Shown one piece after another: positions 26,816 to 55,438 of a stretch of DNA of 64,000 nt. Source of the stretch: a virus (taxonomy: Duplodnaviria > Caudoviricetes). The translations under genes were made by a program, and so were the position numbers. The stretch spans positions 32,001-96,000 of the IMG/VR virus record IMGVR_UViG_3300026549_000038. One strand, given 5' to 3'. Positions within the stretch are counted from its first letter, which is position 1; each line of letters starts with the position of its first letter. Under the pieces are notes generated by a model. That model searched no databases, was not told the origin of the DNA, and saw nothing but the letters and a program-made list of their open reading frames with translations.

Positions 26816-28021
26816 TTATTCACCAGCTTTGAAGTTATACACGGGCTTTATAATATCTACAATCTCAGCTGTGGGTTCAATACACCGGATAATCTCATCC
26901 ATTGGCTTGTAGGCCATCGGTGATTCGTCAATGGTTCCCTTTCCGACAGTTGTTGAGTAGATTCCGGACATTGTGTTCTTGAACTCATCAACCGAGAGGG
27001 TATCCTTTGCCTTGGCACGGGACATCAGTCTTCCAGCGCCGTGTGGGGCAGAGTAGTTCCAGTCAGGATTACCTTTGCCGATACATATCAGTGAGCCATC
27101 ACGCATATTCATCGGGATGATGAGCTTCTCGCCGGCATCGGCGCGGACCGCTCCCTTGCGAAGTATCATCGCGTCGGCGTCGATATAGTTGTGGATGGTT
27201 TCAAATTCATCCTGAGCCACCCAGTTCATCTTGTCACAAATGATTCTGGCTATGGTTTCCCTATTCTTTACGGCATATCTTTGAGTAATCTCCATGTCGT
27301 GAATATACGAATTGAAGTTCTCACCGGTCAGGTGTGCAAGGTCTTTTGAGGCAGATGGTTTCTTGAGAAGCTTGAGTTCTTTCTGAATATCTTTCTGGCG
27401 ACCTTCTGCGGTAAGTTTCTTAATAAGCGCTCTTTTAGCAGTAGACATTTCATTGAGGCACTTAAATGCAAGGTCTTGATAAAACTTACATACTTGAACC
27501 CCAAGATTTCTACTACCGGAATGGATAACTAAGTAAACGTCTCCCCCTTCTGAGCGGTCGAGCTCGATAAAGTGATTTCCACCACCAAGAGTCCCAAGGC
27601 TCTTTATTACTCTGGATGAATCTATACCGTTGATACAATATAGGTCGTCCAGTTCTGGAAACTTTGCCCAGGCCTGGCTATGAATATCGAATCCCGATGG
27701 AACAAATTTGTGTATTACTTCGTCGAGTTTCTTATAATCGTCTTCAGTAATATCAGTTTCGCCCATCTTTCGAATCTTCATAACACGCATACCGCAGCCA
27801 ATATCTACACCGACGAGATTTGGGGTTACCGCACCGTGCAGAGTCATCGTTGTGCCAATTGTGCAACCCTTGCCGGCATGTGCGTCCGGCATGATCCGGA
27901 TAGTCGAATCAGCATAGGGAGAATAGTTGGCCAGAGTCTTCACCTGGTCATAAGCCTCATATTCGAAGGTCTCGGCGAAAACCTTCACCGGAGAGCCGTT
28001 ATTTCTCTTAATTTCAATCAT
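26816..28021 (-). CDS. rtcB: RNA-splicing/repair ligase RtcB
   Basis: MPDAHAG, VGVDIGCG, GTLGGGNHFIE, IHSGSR, HNY, SAPHGAGR, DESPMAYK motifs. Confidence 0.95.
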   Translation of the reverse strand: MIEIKRNNGSPVKVFAETFEYEAYDQVKTLANYSPYADSTIRIMPDAHAGKGCTIGTTMTLHGAVTPNLVGVDIGCGMRVMKIRKMGETDITEDDYKKLDEVIHKFVPSGFDIHSQAWAKFPELDDLYCINGIDSSRVIKSLGTLGGGNHFIELDRSEGGDVYLVIHSGSRNLGVQVCKFYQDLAFKCLNEMSTAKRALIKKLTAEGRQKDIQKELKLLKKPSASKDLAHLTGENFNSYIHDMEITQRYAVKNRETIARIICDKMNWVAQDEFETIHNYIDADAMILRKGAVRADAGEKLIIPMNMRDGSLICIGKGNPDWNYSAPHGAGRLMSRAKAKDTLSVDEFKNTMSGIYSTTVGKGTIDESPMAYKPMDEIIRCIEPTAEIVDIIKPVYNFKAGE

Positions 28022-40566: not shown

Positions 40567-41334
40567 CTAAATAGTTAATTTAAAAGTAAACGGATCATAG
40601 GTTGGATGATAATCTTCATCAAGAAGAGAGACATTTCTCATCTTAGTCTCGTGCCCGGAATCAGTCACTATTGTTTCAACTTCGTGAAGTCCCGAGTGGA
40701 CATGCCCGGAAAGTACCCAATCTATCTGTCTTGGCCTAATTGTATCCGCAAGTTCCTGACATCCAAAATTTTTTCCGTAATTCCAGTTACCGTTCTGAGT
40801 AACCAATCCTTGAGATCCTATTCTAGGAGGAGTATGAGTCAACAACACTTCGCATTTCTTCGGAATACGACTAAACTTCTCTACCAGGGTTGAACTGTTT
40901 CCGTAGAATGCCCACCTGCTCAAATCAGGTATCCAAGGAGTCCCATAGAACTTATGCCCTTCTATCACGACGCTACTGTCGCAAAGAAGTTTTACAATAT
41001 GTTGTTTGTATTGATCTAGGTAGAGTTTCTTCAAGATATCAACCCCGGATCTTCGCGAACCTAGTTCTGCGCTTTCAAAAAAGAAATCATGGTTTCCGGG
41101 TATCACCAGAACATGTTTATATCCGTAATCCTTAAGCTTGTCTGTCCACGGAGTAAATTTTTGAAGCAACCAGGACACGGTTTCTAAACCACTCAGCTGA
41201 TATTTTAGCGGTACTATATCCCCACAGATACAGAGAACATCTCCAGCAGGGAAATCTGATACGCTTGGTAGATACCCATGAAGATCACTGATCGCCGTAA
41301 CATTGAGTTCTTTTTTGACTATTTTTTGATCCAT
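40567..41334 (-). CDS. Calcineurin-like metallophosphoesterase
   Basis: SDLHG, GDI, GNHD, THTPP, GHVH motifs. Confidence 0.92.
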   Translation of the reverse strand: MDQKIVKKELNVTAISDLHGYLPSVSDFPAGDVLCICGDIVPLKYQLSGLETVSWLLQKFTPWTDKLKDYGYKHVLVIPGNHDFFFESAELGSRRSGVDILKKLYLDQYKQHIVKLLCDSSVVIEGHKFYGTPWIPDLSRWAFYGNSSTLVEKFSRIPKKCEVLLTHTPPRIGSQGLVTQNGNWNYGKNFGCQELADTIRPRQIDWVLSGHVHSGLHEVETIVTDSGHETKMRNVSLLDEDYHPTYDPFTFKLTI

Positions 41335-42953: not shown

Positions 42954-43073
42954 TGACCCAGGCGGGGTTCGAACCCACGACCTTTGGTCTTAGTTCAAGG
43001 CTTTACGAGGATTTCTCCGCGGACACTCCCCAACCTTTACTTGCCAACGCTCTACCGACTGAGCTACTGGATC
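42954..43073 (-). ncRNA. tRNA-like RNA with expanded (~55 nt) anticodon domain
   Basis: Canonical acceptor, D and T arms; anticodon loop replaced by a structured insert. Confidence 0.8.
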
Positions 43074-44948: not shown

Positions 44949-45503
44949 TTAATTCTCTGGGTAGCCGCTAAGCTGGTATGCTTCGCGCAGGACCGTACGG
45001 ATATTATCCAGGCACTGTCCGAGGAGGTTCTTCCCCTGCCATTCGCTTGGCCAGTCAACTCTCGGGTCGGTGTAATGAATGCCTACACCCCAAATCTTAT
45101 CACTCGGACTTCCTTCGACGAAGTGTTTTCCTTCGAATTCTGGGTCGAGTATGAGATCTTTAAGTGCTGGATTTTGTATAAACTTTGCCATCAGGGCAAT
45201 CTCCATATATTCCTGCCTATGCTCAACCCAGTCGTCTTCTTTGAATCCCTTGACTTTTCTTCCGAGATACTTTGCATCTCTCGGGGTCTCGGCTGCACAG
45301 ATAAGACTCGCAGTCAGCTCATCGCCAAAATGAACTGCTTTAAGATACATAAACAACTGTTCAGAACTCTTAAAGACCTTGCCGTGGTATTCGACTCTAC
45401 AATTGTAAAAGTTTGACAGTCCGCTACCATAGAAAGCAACGTGTTTGTCATATATAATCAACCCGTGTCGAAGGCCAGATTCTCTTGTCTTTTCTGGTGT
45501 CAT
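44949..45503 (-). CDS. NADAR (YbiA-like) family protein
   Basis: SNFY, SEQLFMYLKA..FGD, AKFIQN, EGSPSDKIWGVG, GKNLLG motifs. Confidence 0.92.
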   Translation of the reverse strand: MTPEKTRESGLRHGLIIYDKHVAFYGSGLSNFYNCRVEYHGKVFKSSEQLFMYLKAVHFGDELTASLICAAETPRDAKYLGRKVKGFKEDDWVEHRQEYMEIALMAKFIQNPALKDLILDPEFEGKHFVEGSPSDKIWGVGIHYTDPRVDWPSEWQGKNLLGQCLDNIRTVLREAYQLSGYPEN

Positions 45504-47646: not shown

Positions 47647-47708
47647 TTGAGAAGGCTGGACTTGAACCAGTATAAGCTTCCTGCGCTGACCATTTGCGTC
47701 ACTTCTCA
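47647..47708 (-). ncRNA. tRNA-like RNA lacking an anticodon arm
   Basis: TGAGAAG/CTTCTCA acceptor, D arm, T arm; only ~11 nt between the D and T arms. Confidence 0.7.
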
Positions 47709-47716
47709 GTTTCTTG

Positions 47717-49393: not shown

Positions 49394-49492
49394 TGGTGGG
49401 AGAAGGATTCGAACCCCCAATAGGATTTAACCGAGAATTTACCCACAACCTACTCAATGAAGATTGCCTGTCTGCCATTCCAGCACCCCACC
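49394..49492 (-). ncRNA. tRNA-like RNA with enlarged anticodon loop and long variable arm
   Basis: GGTGGGG/TCCCACC acceptor, D and T arms; 9-11 nt anticodon loop. Confidence 0.7.
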
Positions 49493-49499
49493 TTAATTG

Positions 49500-49571
49500 T
49501 AGCCCGGGTAAGAATCGAACTTACGCTTCAAAATTTGCAATTTTGCGCTCTGCCAACTGAGCTACCGGGCC
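49500..49571 (-). tRNA. Second tRNA-Cys(GCA) with A73
   Basis: Cloverleaf, loop TTGCAAA. Confidence 0.8.
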
Positions 49572-49614
49572 TGGATTGATCATTCATATCCATCCTGATC
49601 AACCGAGTACATTC

Positions 49615-49883
49615 GCAAAGATACCTTCAGAGATTTTAGAATAAAGCTGTATACGTATTAGTATAAGACTCCTGCGATTGACCTCTTCGCCACAGCACCA
49701 TGTTTGAATATATTTATATTTAGAGGTGCTGATGGGATTCGAACCCACGAATTAGGAGTTTTTTTTTTGAAGTGTAAATCCTCTCTGGTACTTCGCTTGA
49801 CCTTAAATCTAAAGCTCTTGACCCAATTCTAAATCTGATTATCTCGGATTTTTAAAACTAAATCTAAAGCTGAAGCTTTGGTC
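49615..49883 (-). ncRNA. Circularly permuted tRNA-like RNA with upstream hexamer repeats
   Basis: 3' half (49759-49724) precedes 5' half (49699-49668); all four stems complementary. Confidence 0.8.
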
Positions 49884-49973
49884 AATATGTTTTGTCAATA
49901 ATTTCAAAAGAACATAAGCCTTTCACTTATTCGATTACATCCGCTTAAGCGCTGTAACTTCTGCGCTCTGCAA

Positions 49974-50768
49974 CTAACCCCTGTAGAGATAATCTACAAA
50001 CTGGTTTACATCCAGATTCGGTTGTTCGACCTCCGTGTCATTTACAACCTTGAGAGCCTCGATCACTGCTGCAAGCAAGTCAGAGCGTCTGCGAAGCAAC
50101 TCTGCTCTCTCCCTCTGAGTCCACTCACCAGTAAACATCTGCTGAGTATAGTCACCGGTCTCGACTGTCTTGCTTTTGACTGTGGTCTTTGCAGTGTAGT
50201 TTGACGGAAGATGTGACGGATCCAGGTTAGGGTCCTTAAGGATAACCTCCTCCTTCTCTGTCGTACGAGTGACACCCTTGACAAGCTCGGTCTCGAATAC
50301 TCTTCTACCAGCATACTCTGAGTCGGTTGTCTCTTTCCAAACCTCGCTGTCACTACGAACAGGAATGTTTGCAAAGACGGCCTCCAGGTCCTTATTTGTA
50401 AGGATGTTCTTGAGTCTCATAAGCTCCAGAGCGGTAAGGTTTCCGAATGAGTGTCCGTTAACTACAAGCTCGGTGGTTTTTGCTCCCTTGGAGTTCGTTG
50501 ACTCAACACTGAACACGTCTGTAAGCCAGTTCTTGAACTGCTTATTGAACCAGTCAAATTTCTCGTCTACTGTGGTAGCAACTACCTGAGTACCCATCTT
50601 TGAAGGGTCCTCGAAATATCCGTCTCTCGGAACAAATGTTTTCTTGTAACCGCGAAACATCCCCTGCTTATTCTTGAAGAAGCTTGCGTAATCGGCAAAT
50701 AACCTTGCAATACCTGCGCTTGAATGCTCAACCTTGGCGAGCATAGTATTCATCTTAATGTCTCTCAT
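49974..50768 (-). CDS. Conserved phage hypothetical protein (resembles DUF7873-type proteins from memory, unverified)
   Basis: MNTMLA, FRGYKKTF.P, LELMRLK, IPVR, RTTEKE, FTGE..QRERAELL pattern; biased codon usage suggesting high expression. Confidence 0.7.
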   Translation of the reverse strand: MRDIKMNTMLAKVEHSSAGIARLFADYASFFKNKQGMFRGYKKTFVPRDGYFEDPSKMGTQVVATTVDEKFDWFNKQFKNWLTDVFSVESTNSKGAKTTELVVNGHSFGNLTALELMRLKNILTNKDLEAVFANIPVRSDSEVWKETTDSEYAGRRVFETELVKGVTRTTEKEEVILKDPNLDPSHLPSNYTAKTTVKSKTVETGDYTQQMFTGEWTQRERAELLRRRSDLLAAVIEALKVVNDTEVEQPNLDVNQFVDYLYRG

Positions 50769-51335: not shown

Positions 51336-52562
51336 TTATTTATTTGTTGATATTATATGATACAAATCATACCTAGAATCAATCAAAAGTTTATTCACTG
51401 CATCATAATCTATATGATCTTTCAGTGTAGATGTCTTTTCAAGCATCATGAGCTCTTCTCTTTCCTTATTCACAATAGACATGATTTCATCATACTCATA
51501 CTTGTGATTACGGATATCTAGCAAGAAATCCCTGTCTTTATCTCGAACCACGTTAAATCCCTCACCCCGGAGAAGCTCATTGGACATTCTCAAGAGCCGG
51601 ACACAATGCATCATATTCTTTGAGTCATAATTCTTGTTCAGATTACTCTCATACCTGACCGGATTCCTATGTGCCTCCCACTCCTTGTATTCCTTGTAGT
51701 CTTTGCAGTGAGAAGTATACCCATCTCGGTTGAAGTAAAGATAACAAATCGGTGAATCTCCCTCTTTGACAGCGGAAAGTCTTATGTCATTGGATTTGGT
51801 ATAGTCATCAGGATTCACGATTCCTTCATAACCGTAGAACTCTTTTTCCCAAATACGATTTCGTATCCGGACTGCCTCTTGAGGATCTTTGATAAGCTTG
51901 TTATATGGGTAAGGGATACTTGGATAGGGGTTACATTTTGCCCAATCTGGCAGTGCTTCAAAGTGGAAAAATGCAGCCCAATCATAGTAAACTCCATAGA
52001 CATCTTTCATATTCGGTATGTTCACTAGACCGCAGTACCTTTGGTTTAGGTGGTTGTCTTGCAGGAATTTCTTTATGGGTTGAGATCCCTGATTCTTGAA
52101 GGTATAGCAAAAATCCAGCGGATCTTTTCTCTCACTGACAGGATTAACTATCTTCTTATTCAGCCCCCTGGCTTTATATATTTGACTAATAGCGTACCCA
52201 GAAAAGCTCTTCACACATTCTTTCGAGAGAAAGAGGTCCCTATGAGAGATTATATTCTGAATCACCGGATGTACTTCTCCAACTATACAGTCCTTCGGAA
52301 CGAACAGGCTTTCCAGAACAGAAGGATTTGACTTAAGCAGCAGTTCTATCCATCTCCCGAACTCCCAATAGACAGTGTCGTGCCTGCTGTCTGAGACTTG
52401 TTCTGTGTATGTAGAACGAAGTCCGATAATCTGCTGAACCGGAGCCACGAACACACCACCTATATCTTTATCTGATGTCTCTGTGTTGAGATGGTACATG
52501 TGAGATCCGCGGACATATTCAAAAATAATCAGTTTGTTTTTTCTAAGTCCTTCTATGGTCAT
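51336..52562 (-). CDS. Pol-beta superfamily nucleotidyltransferase (YcgL/RlaP-like)
   Basis: GSHMYHLNTETSDKDIGGVF, NPSVLE.L, YDSKNMMHCVRLL motifs. Confidence 0.85.
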   Translation of the reverse strand: MTIEGLRKNKLIIFEYVRGSHMYHLNTETSDKDIGGVFVAPVQQIIGLRSTYTEQVSDSRHDTVYWEFGRWIELLLKSNPSVLESLFVPKDCIVGEVHPVIQNIISHRDLFLSKECVKSFSGYAISQIYKARGLNKKIVNPVSERKDPLDFCYTFKNQGSQPIKKFLQDNHLNQRYCGLVNIPNMKDVYGVYYDWAAFFHFEALPDWAKCNPYPSIPYPYNKLIKDPQEAVRIRNRIWEKEFYGYEGIVNPDDYTKSNDIRLSAVKEGDSPICYLYFNRDGYTSHCKDYKEYKEWEAHRNPVRYESNLNKNYDSKNMMHCVRLLRMSNELLRGEGFNVVRDKDRDFLLDIRNHKYEYDEIMSIVNKEREELMMLEKTSTLKDHIDYDAVNKLLIDSRYDLYHIISTNK

Positions 52563-52585
52563 AACTATTAATTTATATATTATAT

Positions 52586-52924
52586 TCAATTACATGTCAA
52601 ATTTTTTGTTATGTCTTCTAAAATTTTCACGTTTTTTAGAAGTGGTTCATTATCTGTTCCATAACCAATAAGTTCTCCTTCTACAAGATACGCTTTTTGT
52701 GGGTCTGCAACTTTGTAAATCAGGCCGAGTTGCGACAATAATCCGTAAAGGGTTGAAATTTTTGCCTCATTTATCGGTGAAGGTAATATGATATTCCAGC
52801 GTTTATTGGAAAACATACACTCATAACAAGATATTCCGATTTCTTCACCTATTTGTTCGCCGCCGTGCCATATCTTTGATTTACCATCTTTTGGAAGTTC
52901 TCCAATACGTATATATTTTTTCAT
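52586..52924 (-). CDS. Hypothetical protein
   Basis: YIRIGE.P...G.GTDNEPLL pattern. Confidence 0.65.
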   Translation of the reverse strand: MKKYIRIGELPKDGKSKIWHGGEQIGEEIGISCYECMFSNKRWNIILPSPINEAKISTLYGLLSQLGLIYKVADPQKAYLVEGELIGYGTDNEPLLKNVKILEDITKNLTCN

Positions 52925-54643: not shown

Positions 54644-55438
54644 TTAAACGGTATTAATATTGCGGTTTGTCTTCTTTTCCAGTTCTCTAAAGTCCTTTGT
54701 CTTGACCTTAGTGATAATTCTGCGGCCCATCCTGTCGAGAAGTCCCAGAGGAGCCCTAAGAACAATTCCTTCTGCTTCCAGTGTCGGGTCTTCAGAAACT
54801 GCAGAAGCAAAACCAGCCTTCACTTTTTCGATTGCTTCCTGCAGGGTCATCTCTCCGAGGTAAGGTACAACATCGATACCGAGTTTACCACAGATATCTT
54901 CTACAGCTTCTCTCCTCAGCCAGGTATCTCCAATCTTAATGTCAAAGCAGATAAACTTGAGACGATCCTTGCAATACCTTCCTCCTGCTGCCTGCATCTT
55001 CTTGCCGTATGTCTCTCCGAAGATTATACACTCGCTTTCCGGCAGAACGATGTCTGTTTTTCCTTCTCCGTACTCAGGAGCAGGCCGCTCACAGCTGAAT
55101 GCTTTAATGAGCTTATCCTTGTCTCCGAGAGATTTCAGAAGCTCTACTTCATCCGGTCTCATATTTGCTTTGTCGGTCTTGCCATGTACTTCTACATCGT
55201 AGTATTCAACTTCTGACCACTTGCCAGGCATCACTTCCGTATCTACAGTCTTTGGAATAAGGTGGATGCTTGTGCACTCTCCATCTACCTTCTCTGTTGC
55301 TTCCCACTTAGCATTGAGCTTGTCCAACAGTTCAAACTCCGGAGTAGTCAACTCAGTAGGAATAATACAATTGTAGGTAGGGCTATTTTTATCTAAATCT
55401 CGCTTAAAACACGTGTTAATTTTCGTATACCACTGCAT
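54644..55438 (-). CDS. ATP-dependent RNA ligase (Rnl2-like nucleotidyltransferase domain)
   Basis: TEKVDG, FGETYG, FICFDI, EGIVLR, TKVK motifs. Confidence 0.85.
   Translation of the reverse strand: MQWYTKINTCFKRDLDKNSPTYNCIIPTELTTPEFELLDKLNAKWEATEKVDGECTSIHLIPKTVDTEVMPGKWSEVEYYDVEVHGKTDKANMRPDEVELLKSLGDKDKLIKAFSCERPAPEYGEGKTDIVLPESECIIFGETYGKKMQAAGGRYCKDRLKFICFDIKIGDTWLRREAVEDICGKLGIDVVPYLGEMTLQEAIEKVKAGFASAVSEDPTLEAEGIVLRAPLGLLDRMGRRIITKVKTKDFRELEKKTNRNINTV

What the first reader, a model, noticed from the sequence alone, without database searches (positions are those of the whole stretch)
49615..50768. Circularly permuted tRNA-like RNA attached to the 3' end of a hypothetical protein gene: candidate new protein-RNA system
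Seen on the minus strand downstream of the 49974 stop: a tRNA 3' half comes first (A9, ACTCC, TAATTC, GTGGG-TTCGAAT-CCCAT, CAGCACC, U73; 49768-49724). A 24-nt AT spacer follows, then the 5' half (GGTGCTG, TG, GCG-AAGAGGTCAAT-CGC, A, GGAGT-CT; 49699-49666). The acceptor (7/7 bp), D, anticodon (GGAGT/ACTCC) and T stems all pair. Beyond the open anticodon, the flanks can form a further helix (49776-49796 with 49615-49636). Established: permuted tRNA genes occur in red algae and a few archaea, and permuted two-piece tmRNAs in some bacteria. This RNA lacks the G3-U70 Ala determinant, so it is not an ordinary tmRNA. Inference: RNase P plus 3' trimming would give a two-piece tRNA mimic whose aminoacylatable end is the 3' end of the protein's own transcript. 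Alternatively, anticodon ligation (RtcB and Rnl2 are in this window) could give a CT-NNN-AA loop such as UAA or UAU.
Basis: partly seen in the sequence, partly recalled or inferred. Interest (0 to 1): 0.93.

Follow-up and report, generated by a model that had tools for sequence, protein, structure and literature searches.

The report
Phage tRNA-mimic RNA beside DUF7873
The back-to-front tRNA is real, but it is a Y-RNA-like tRNA mimic with no anticodon loop that travels with an unknown protein gene (DUF7873) in many phages and actinobacteria, so it probably marks an undescribed RNA-protein particle and not a new kind of tRNA or tmRNA.

Summary
A covariance model built only from distant phages finds the element at 49676-49748(-) with 48 bits. 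The order of parts (T arm, 7-bp acceptor stem closed by a spacer, D arm, ends paired where the anticodon arm would be) is that of YrlA, the bacterial Y RNA. It does not reach Rfam's YrlA threshold, and no Ro60/TROVE gene is in this record or in two near-complete relatives.

The constant companion is DUF7873. A module lies downstream of the gene in 21 of 22 phage loci and 78 of 80 bacterial loci found by protein. All 17 modules found by RNA pattern have the gene 146-223 nt upstream. DUF7873 has no known fold and is predicted to form a dimer.

In Lak phages the RNA stands about 180 kb from the gene, behind the same conserved leader. RNA-library contigs give only a weak hint of processing at the acceptor stem.

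This scan has reported the same DUF7873-RNA pair before on other genomes. I found no paper describing it.

The parts
49974..50768 (-). DUF7873 (PF25283) protein gene, 264 aa
   Evidence: Pfam gives 101.6 bits against a cut-off of 27. The AF2 model has mean pLDDT 88. The only fold match is its own family (TM 0.94). A homodimer is predicted.
49797..49905 (-). Conserved leader with repeated TTGAC / AGCTTYAG-type motifs
   Evidence: It is conserved in L005-L018, L046, L099 and Lak-A1. The 14-mer GTCAAGAGCTTTAG occurs once in the window, so it is not a general promoter word. Its role, as promoter or as part of the RNA, is not resolved.
49780..49796 (-). 5' strand of the outer bulged helix (GCGAAG-UAC-CAGAGAGG)
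   Evidence: It pairs with 49615-49637. Relatives show compensatory changes: GUAAGA-GAC-CAGUAG in L005 and GUGAGA-AAC-CAGUAG in L010.
49754..49759 (-). 3' strand of the anticodon-like stem (ACUCCU)
   Evidence: It pairs with 49668-49673. It covaries: UCUGA/UCAGA in L005, CCUUG/CAAGG in L016, CACCA/UGGUG in L063. RNAalifold recovers it without constraints.
49732..49748 (-). T arm (5-bp stem, UUCGAAU loop)
   Evidence: Four of its 5 pairs show changes on both sides across 35 modules.
49724..49731 (-). Acceptor 3' strand CAGCACC plus U73
   Evidence: It forms 7 of 7 pairs with 49693-49699. All 7 pairs show changes on both sides across 35 modules.
49700..49723 (-). Spacer closing the acceptor stem (24 nt here)
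   Evidence: Counted from U73 to G1, its length is 17-130 nt in the window's clade, with a hairpin insert in many, and 6-38 nt in other lineages. Only CUA at its start and ACAU at its end are conserved in the clade.
49693..49699 (-). Acceptor 5' strand GGUGCUG
   Evidence: The predicted RNase P site is 5' of 49699; this is an inference.
49674..49692 (-). U8 G9 and the D arm (4-bp stem, loop with GG)
49668..49673 (-). 5' strand of the anticodon-like stem (AGGAGU)
49650..49665 (-). Small hairpin in the junction
   Evidence: It is in the minimum-energy folds. Relatives have a hairpin of different sequence at the same place.
49615..49637 (-). 3' strand of the outer helix, with a 3-nt bulge (AAG, 49625-49627) and a 1-nt bulge
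   Evidence: The consensus in the clade is YUG-AAN-G. It corresponds to the UUAAACGU loop found 3' of modules in other phages and actinobacteria.
49573..49604 (-). Hairpin just before the first tRNA of the array
   Evidence: A hairpin stands at the same place in relatives, with a different sequence.
49499..49571 (-). tRNA-Cys(GCA), the first of about 25 tRNAs downstream

Best explanation
The element is a non-coding RNA of the Y-RNA-like (YrlA-type) tRNA-mimic class. It has a T arm, a 7-bp acceptor stem closed by a variable spacer, and a D arm. Its two ends pair where a tRNA has its anticodon arm, and they continue into a bulged helix with a conserved internal loop. It has no anticodon loop, so it cannot decode.

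Its conserved partner is DUF7873, a protein of unknown fold that is predicted to form a dimer, and not Ro60. I infer that the two form a ribonucleoprotein. In this picture the bulged helix and internal loop, and perhaps the repeated leader motifs, hold the protein. The tRNA-shaped head engages enzymes that recognise the acceptor/T-arm stack, such as RNase P, the CCA-adding enzyme, or tRNA repair or attack enzymes.

In this rumen phage the RNA heads the tRNA array inside an RNA-repair island. It is probably cut out of a precursor at the following tRNA by RNase P, and possibly also at its own acceptor stem.

Shown: the RNA structure, its conservation and its genomic linkage to DUF7873. Inferred: binding, processing and function.
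For: Structure:
- All stems are present.
- Model R1, built without the window's clade, scores the element at 48 bits.
- Unconstrained RNAalifold on 17 clade sequences recovers the T, acceptor, D and anticodon-like stems and the distal helix.
- 11 of 12 T and acceptor pairs show changes on both sides in 35 modules. The covariation score is 0.97 against 0.23 in shuffles.

YrlA-like shape:
- The order T arm, acceptor stem, D arm is as described in PMC4201824.
- Rfam YrlA gives full-length matches of 29-37 bits on relatives. Modules next to a phage TROVE gene score the same.

Linkage to DUF7873:
- 21 of 22 phage loci found by protein have a module within 750 nt downstream, against 0 of 1000 shuffles. 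R1 then found two modules in the one exception, L146.
- 78 of 80 bacterial loci have a module.
- 17 of 17 modules found by RNA pattern have the gene 146-223 nt upstream.
- Cultured phages of Arthrobacter, Gordonia, Rhizobium, Klebsiella, Ralstonia and Pseudanabaena have it.

No Ro60:
- TROVE is absent from this record and from 5 related records, two of them at least 98% complete.
- It is absent from 4 of 5 cultured phages.
- In 5 actinomycete genomes it is absent or more than 0.7 Mb away.

Protein:
- The homodimer score is 0.80, with the best of 3 controls at 0.02.
- That mark was reached by 20 of 30 proteins solved as pairs of one chain and by 1 of 23 solved as single chains.
- The runs agree in at least 97% of contacts, and the partner's pLDDT is at least 88.
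- My own alignment was used, so those counts hold only roughly.

Context: an RlaP-like nucleotidyltransferase, an Rnl2-type RNA ligase, a metallophosphatase, NADAR and RtcB are in the window.

Weak hint of processing: RNA-library contigs of two studies stop at 49733 and 49734. Another contig starts at 49690. A third run crosses the gap.
Against: - No binding, transcript-end or phenotype datum exists.
- DUF7873 shows no recognisable RNA-binding fold or family.
- In Lak-A1 and Lak-B4 the RNA and the gene are about 180 kb apart. Adjacency is therefore not obligatory, and linkage elsewhere could reflect co-transcription alone.
- My scanner pre-selects paired stems, which inflates the 99.5% paired figure.
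- The hosts (Prevotella-like Bacteroidota) may encode Ro60, as the Bacteroides thetaiotaomicron control does. A host Ro60 partner is therefore not excluded.
- One RNA-library contig crosses the acceptor and spacer unbroken. That contig may be DNA or precursor.
Confidence: 0.6

Rival explanations
1. A cis-acting processing or stability element. On this reading the tRNA-shaped fold only offers RNase P and 3' exonucleases a defined cut, which separates the DUF7873 mRNA from the tRNA array or protects transcript ends. No dedicated protein partner is involved.
For: It sits between an mRNA and a tRNA array, and no terminator is predicted between them. The 7-bp acceptor plus 5-bp T stem is the minimal RNase P substrate, which is established knowledge. 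M. smegmatis YrlA is cleaved by RNase P (PMC4201824). RNA-library contigs break around the acceptor stem.
Against: In L046 and L086 the RNA ends at a terminator with no tRNA array behind it. In actinomycete chromosomes it stands without tRNAs nearby. The conserved outer helix, the internal loop and the D arm are more than a cut site needs. In Lak phages it is kept although it is unlinked from the gene.
Confidence: 0.15
2. A classical Y RNA that serves the host's, or an unlinked, Ro60/Rsr. On this reading DUF7873 is only a syntenic neighbour.
For: The module architecture is the same as YrlA's, and the Rfam YrlA scores equal those of modules beside a phage TROVE gene. Rhizobium phage RHph_TM39 carries both TROVE and DUF7873. 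Three of 5 actinomycete genomes have TROVE somewhere.
Against: TROVE is absent from most carriers. The GNCGAAN0-1G motif is not at the 5' end here. Known YrlA genes lie within 4 kb of Ro60 (PMC4201824). RHph_TM39 has separate modules next to its TROVE gene.
Confidence: 0.1
3. One reading: a two-piece, aminoacylatable tRNA or tmRNA-like molecule. RNase P and 3' trimming would free an acceptor end that gets charged and acts on the ribosome.
For: The acceptor stem is a perfect 7 bp with a discriminator base. Many 'a'-type modules in other lineages encode A73-CCA right after the stem. M. smegmatis YrlA receives CCA in vivo. Rfam's permuted-tmRNA model aligns to the T arm, acceptor stem and spacer at 21.5 bits.
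Against: G3:U70 is absent here (U3:A70), and position 3:70 shows many pair types across 35 modules. No conserved tag frame or pseudoknot fits the 25-45 nt available. The window has U73-CUA and no CCA. The tmRNA score of 21.5 bits is far under the threshold of 47. In bacteria the acceptor is closed by loops of 6-10 nt. L146 carries an ordinary tmRNA beside the cassette.
Confidence: 0.07
4. A true permuted tRNA gene. Its ends would be ligated, by RtcB or Rnl2, through a circular intermediate into a decoding tRNA.
For: The 3' half precedes the 5' half, as in red-algal permuted tRNA genes. RtcB and an RNA ligase are in the window.
Against: The bases flanking the open stem are not conserved and would give different 'anticodons' in close relatives. 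The flanks form a conserved multi-helix junction and not a bulge-helix-bulge. The A-run at the junction varies in length between samples. The same RNA occurs in actinomycetes, with loop-capped acceptor stems.
Confidence: 0.03

Closest known systems
YrlA, the bacterial and mycobacteriophage Y RNA bound by Ro60/Rsr (Rfam RF02553; Chen et al. 2014, PMC4201824)
   Same: The order of parts is the same: T arm, acceptor-like stem closed by a loop, D arm, with the RNA ends paired at the anticodon position. The T and D loops are canonical tRNA loops. It occurs in phages and in RNA-repair contexts. The Rfam model aligns full-length to relatives.
   Different: The score is under half of Rfam's threshold, and the window itself gives no hit. 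No Ro60/TROVE is nearby or, mostly, anywhere in the genome. The GNCGAA motif is not at the 5' end. The constant neighbour is DUF7873. The acceptor stem is always 7 bp. Other lineages often carry two tandem modules in one RNA.
M. smegmatis YrlA, which is cleaved by RNase P and receives CCA (PMC4201824)
   Same: It has a 7-bp acceptor stem, the feature that made that RNA an RNase P substrate. A two-piece product is therefore plausible.
   Different: Processing is untested here, apart from weak contig breaks. The window has U73-CUA and not A73-CCA.
Two-piece (permuted) tmRNA (Rfam RF04321)
   Same: The gene order is the same: T arm, acceptor 3' strand, intervening segment, acceptor 5' strand. There is a partial model match of 21.5 bits.
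   Different: It has no G3:U70, no tag frame and no pseudoknots. It has a true D arm. It is far below the threshold of 47.
Circularly permuted tRNA genes of Cyanidioschyzon and Thermofilum (from my own knowledge; not checked in a paper here)
   Same: The 3' half is encoded upstream of the 5' half.
   Different: Those mature into normal decoding tRNAs through a bulge-helix-bulge cut and ligation. Here there is no conserved anticodon and no such motif.

Membership tests
YrlA / bacterial Y RNA (RF02553) | Order of parts: T arm, acceptor-like stem-loop, D arm, with the RNA ends paired at the anticodon position | tested here: met
   compared with PMC4201824.
YrlA / bacterial Y RNA (RF02553) | Reaches Rfam's gathering score of 69 bits | tested here: not met
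   The window gives no YrlA hit at E up to 10. Relatives score 29-37 bits.
YrlA / bacterial Y RNA (RF02553) | GNCGAAN0-1G motif near the 5' end (presumed Ro60 site) | tested here: not met
   Reading: the 5' strand has AGCGAAG, whose first base is wrong. The only exact match, GGCGAAG, lies inside the D arm (49691-49685).
YrlA / bacterial Y RNA (RF02553) | Encoded within a few kb of a Ro60/TROVE gene on the same strand | tested here: not met
YrlA / bacterial Y RNA (RF02553) | Bound by Ro60; carries tRNA-type modifications | not testable with these tools
   This needs immunoprecipitation and modification mapping.
Two-piece tmRNA (RF04321) | G3:U70 alanine identity pair | tested here: not met
   The window has U3:A70. 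At that pair, 35 modules show CG, GC, UA, AU and UG (columns 20/162).
Two-piece tmRNA (RF04321) | Tag reading frame and pseudoknots in the coding piece | tested here: not met
   Only 25-45 nt lie between the anticodon-like stem and the distal helix, and no frame is conserved.
Two-piece tmRNA (RF04321) | Reaches Rfam's gathering score of 47 bits | tested here: not met
   It scores 21.5 bits, over model positions 36-93 only.
Permuted tRNA gene | Leader and trailer join to restore a 7-nt anticodon loop with a conserved anticodon | tested here: not met
   The flanking bases differ among close relatives, and the flanks form a multi-helix junction.
Permuted tRNA gene | A splicing endonuclease is available | not tested
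   I did not search for EndA-type genes.
DUF7873 (PF25283), the protein | Pfam model above its cut-off over the full length | tested here: met
   101.6 bits against 27, over residues 5-261.

The most novel reading that the evidence does not exclude
A DUF7873 dimer and this tRNA-mimic RNA form a Ro60-independent ribonucleoprotein found in large phages and actinobacteria. The RNA's tRNA-shaped head would recruit or decoy enzymes that act on the acceptor/T-arm of tRNAs (RNase P, CCA-adding enzyme, repair ligases, or host tRNA-targeting defence nucleases). This would give phages control over tRNA maturation or protection during infection.
Probability: 0.4. Interest if true: 0.8.

Novelty: new variant of a known kind. 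Interest (0 to 1): 0.62.

Why it matters
Y RNAs are known only as partners of Ro60. Here an RNA with the same tRNA-mimic head travels with a different, structurally orphan protein. The pair occurs in rumen megaphage relatives, in cultured phages of six host genera and in at least 135 species-representative bacterial genomes, mostly actinomycetes.

If the pair is a particle, it is a second family of tRNA-mimic ribonucleoproteins. It would also give a function to a Pfam DUF, and to the unannotated 300-500 nt gaps in phage tRNA clusters. One such gap is annotated as a suppressor tRNA in Klebsiella phage FBKp24.

Several carriers are cultured and genetically tractable, so the question can be tested directly.

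Tried and rejected
- ARAGORN and Rfam at gathering scores found nothing at the site.
- The exact RNA pattern with a short spacer found nothing in viral contigs.
- Published Lak loci around the DUF7873 gene have no module nearby. My scanner's hit in L001 and L003 lies in a coding region with a poor T loop and is spurious.
- The scanner's second window hit, at 47671, is an ordinary-order tRNA-like remnant and not a permuted module.
- DUF7873 matches no family in PHROGs, NCBIfam or PADLOC.
- The PDB sequence search gave only E of about 0.8.
- Foldseek against PDB and BFVD gave nothing at E up to 0.001. The top rows, Cas7-like, had TM 0.12.
- VIA-align gave Z of 6.7 or less, all on helical bundles. 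The language-model look-up gave 0.82, below a usable level.
- The diverse protein alignment A6 was too divergent for the search for related loci.
- The promoter and terminator scan was uninformative.
- The leader 14-mer is not a repeated promoter word in the window.
- Parts of the stretch without RNA-contig cover in runs X3, X17 and X19 prove nothing.
- Papers that might hold prior art (Burroughs and Aravind 2016; Sim et al. 2020) are not held.
- No paper mentions DUF7873.

Full report
WHAT THE WINDOW IS. The window is part of a 160-kb IMG/VR virus record estimated at 81% complete. It comes from bovine gut samples. It is distantly similar to the Prevotella Lak megaphages, with 64-66% DNA identity over part of the gene. 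On the minus strand the DUF7873 gene (49974-50768) is followed by the flagged element. After that come about 25 tRNA genes, from 49571 down to 39940. Around them lie several RNA-repair genes:
- an RlaP-like nucleotidyltransferase (51336-52589);
- an Rnl2-type RNA ligase (54644-55438);
- a metallophosphatase (40567-41334);
- NADAR (44949-45503);
- RtcB, 22 kb away at window 26828-27940.

All stems are at the stated places. ARAGORN and Rfam's gathering scan do not call the element. At a permissive threshold the only relevant Rfam hit is the permuted-tmRNA model. It scores 21.5 bits against a threshold of 47 and covers only the T arm, the acceptor stem and the spacer.

RELATIVES AND COVARIATION. 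Fourteen viral contigs that encode a 66-71% identical protein all carry the same element about 155-170 nt after the gene.
- The acceptor stem changes from GGUGCUG/CAGCACC to GGCGCGU/GCGCGCC and to GGGGCAU/AUGCCCC.
- The anticodon-like stem changes from GGAGU/ACUCC to UCAGA/UCUGA and to CAAGG/CCUUG.
- The distal helix changes from CAGAGA/UCUCUG to CAGUAG/CUACUG.
- Counted from U73 to G1, the spacer ranges from 17 to 130 nt, with a hairpin insert in many.

Unconstrained RNAalifold on 17 distinct sequences recovers the T, acceptor, D and anticodon-like stems and the distal helix.

On 35 modules from all lineages, 11 of 12 T and acceptor pairs show changes on both sides. The covariation score is 0.97, against 0.23 in shuffles and at most 0.19 when the partners are slid. 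The modules were picked by a scanner that demands pairing, so the paired percentage is partly by construction. The variety of pair types is not.

An independent check is model R1. It was built from 26 modules of other lineages, without the window's clade. It finds the window's element with 48 bits. The runners-up are tRNA-tRNA junctions at 27.6 bits or less, with mismatched acceptor pairs.

WHAT KIND OF RNA. The order T arm, acceptor stem closed by a loop, D arm, with the ends paired at the anticodon position, is the architecture of YrlA. YrlA is the bacterial Y RNA bound by Ro60/Rsr (PMC4201824). That paper also shows that the M. smegmatis YrlA, which has a 7-bp acceptor stem, is cut by RNase P and receives CCA.

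Rfam's YrlA model aligns full-length to relatives of this element at 29-37 bits, against a threshold of 69. It gives the same scores to modules next to the TROVE gene of Rhizobium phage RHph_TM39. The tRNA-like head is therefore of the same kind. Membership in the curated family is not met.

THE PARTNER IS DUF7873, NOT Ro60. TROVE is absent in most carriers:
- It is absent from this record and from five related records, two of them 98-100% complete.
- It is absent from 4 of 5 complete cultured carrier phages.
- In 5 actinomycete genomes it is absent or more than 0.7 Mb away.

DUF7873, in contrast, is nearly always there:
- Starting from the protein, 21 of 22 non-Lak phage loci have at least one module within 750 nt downstream, against 0 of 1000 dinucleotide shuffles. 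R1 later found two modules in the exception, L146.
- Seventy-eight of 80 bacterial loci (Streptomyces, Lentzea, Dactylosporangium, Nocardia, Actinomadura and others) have one or two modules 80-260 nt downstream, with closing loops of 6-10 nt.
- Starting from the RNA pattern alone, all 17 permuted hits in viral contigs have a DUF7873 gene ending 146-223 nt upstream on the same strand. Three of them (L046, L086, L063) are very distant lineages.
- Cultured carriers include Arthrobacter phage Racecar, Gordonia phages GodonK and Ronaldo, Pseudanabaena phage PA-SR01, Rhizobium phage RHph_TM39, Klebsiella phage FBKp24 and Ralstonia phage RSL1. In each, the RNA fills an unannotated gap.

Many lineages have two tandem modules. 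The 'a' type has a short loop that often begins ACCA. The 'b' type has a 22-38 nt spacer after UCUG or UCUA. The window's single module is of the 'b' type.

A conserved internal loop flanks the 'b' modules. It reads AAUCGAC on the 5' side and UUAAACGU on the 3' side in other lineages. It is reduced to GAC or UAC opposite UGAAC-GUC or UGAAG-GUA in the window's clade. It is the best candidate for a protein-binding site.

THE PROTEIN. DUF7873 has 271 clusters at 50% identity with E up to 0.001. The AF2 model is confident, with pLDDT 88. It matches only its own family in the ESM Atlas (TM 0.94). Nothing convincing appears in PDB or BFVD.

A symmetric homodimer is predicted with score 0.80, the best of 3 controls at 0.02.
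- That mark was reached by 20 of 30 proteins solved as pairs of one chain and by 1 of 23 solved as single chains.
- The runs agree in at least 97% of contacts, and the partner's pLDDT is at least 88.
- My own alignment was used, so the counts hold only roughly.
- The interface includes the conserved ExTN motif (residues 89-92) and N243.

WHAT IS NOT SUPPORTED.
1. The RNA as the 3' end of the protein's own transcript. A conserved leader with repeated motifs separates gene and RNA. In Lak-A1 and Lak-B4 the same leader, module and following tRNA-Lys stand about 180 kb from the DUF7873 gene, next to a divergently oriented ORF.
2. tmRNA. There is no G3:U70, no tag frame, and a true D arm.
3. A ligated decoding tRNA. 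The bases at the open stem differ among close relatives. The flanks form a conserved junction. The A-run at the junction varies in length between samples.

EXPRESSION. Only contigs of RNA libraries could be laid, and they cannot show ends or strand.
- In run X3 a 3.5-kb contig stops at 49733, joined to Illumina adapter sequence.
- In run X17, from another study, one contig stops at 49734. A second, about 16 times deeper, spans 49502-49690.
- Neither run crosses the acceptor stem and spacer, but run X2 does.
This is a weak hint of a break near the acceptor stem, and no more.

PRIOR ART AND THE SCAN'S OWN RECORD. No held paper mentions DUF7873. My searches for phage Y RNAs or permuted tRNAs in phages found no description of this pair. 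Earlier agents of this scan reported the same pair on many other genomes. A later check there names Burroughs and Aravind 2016 as the nearest idea in print. I could not read that paper, so the novelty claim rests on an incomplete literature check.

VERDICT. This is a real, widely conserved tRNA-mimic RNA of Y-RNA type, with a new and constant protein neighbour. The candidate protein-RNA system stands, as an inference from linkage.

Noticed in passing
window 47650-47712 (-): A tRNA-like remnant lies between tRNA-Gln and tRNA-Ile. It has an acceptor stem, a D arm and a T arm in normal order but no proper anticodon arm. Neither ARAGORN nor Rfam calls it.
   Followed up: partly
window 42954-43073 (-) and 49394-49492 (-): Rfam tRNA matches of 120 and 99 nt that ARAGORN does not call. 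They may be tRNAs with insertions or introns.
   Followed up: no
L005 4146-4221, L012 4211-4286, L018 4220-4295: The first tRNA after the module has nearly the same body in relatives but different anticodons: Glu UUC, Lys UUU and Asn GUU. This looks like anticodon switching in an orthologous phage tRNA.
   Followed up: no
L241 1501-1575 (-) in Lak-A1; L242 1501-1569 (-) in Lak-B4: The published Lak megaphages carry the same leader, module and following tRNA-Lys, but about 180 kb from their DUF7873 gene.
   Followed up: partly
L157 2518-2597 (Klebsiella phage FBKp24): The annotated 'tRNA-Sup-TTA' overlaps the second permuted module (R1 hit at 2570-2648, 53.8 bits). It is probably a mis-call.
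   Followed up: partly
L160 422-477, 577-635, 1164-1224 (Rhizobium phage RHph_TM39): Three further tRNA-like modules lie just upstream of the phage's TROVE (Ro60) gene, 6 kb from its DUF7873 cassette. One phage thus appears to hold both systems.
   Followed up: partly
L162 326-739 (Streptomyces sp.): The RNase P RNA gene lies 1.8 kb upstream of the DUF7873 gene. This was seen in 1 of 5 bacterial loci scanned.
   Followed up: no
L146 590-881: A one-piece phage tmRNA (86 bits) lies 600 nt upstream of the DUF7873 cassette.
   Followed up: no
window 49758-49768: The A-run just 5' of the anticodon-like stem differs in length between samples: one or two extra bases, or three fewer.
   Followed up: no
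L063 (-) about 150 nt upstream of its module; same region as L140: A degenerate first module with a weak T stem, followed by UCCA and a 1-nt spacer, precedes the good one.
   Followed up: no
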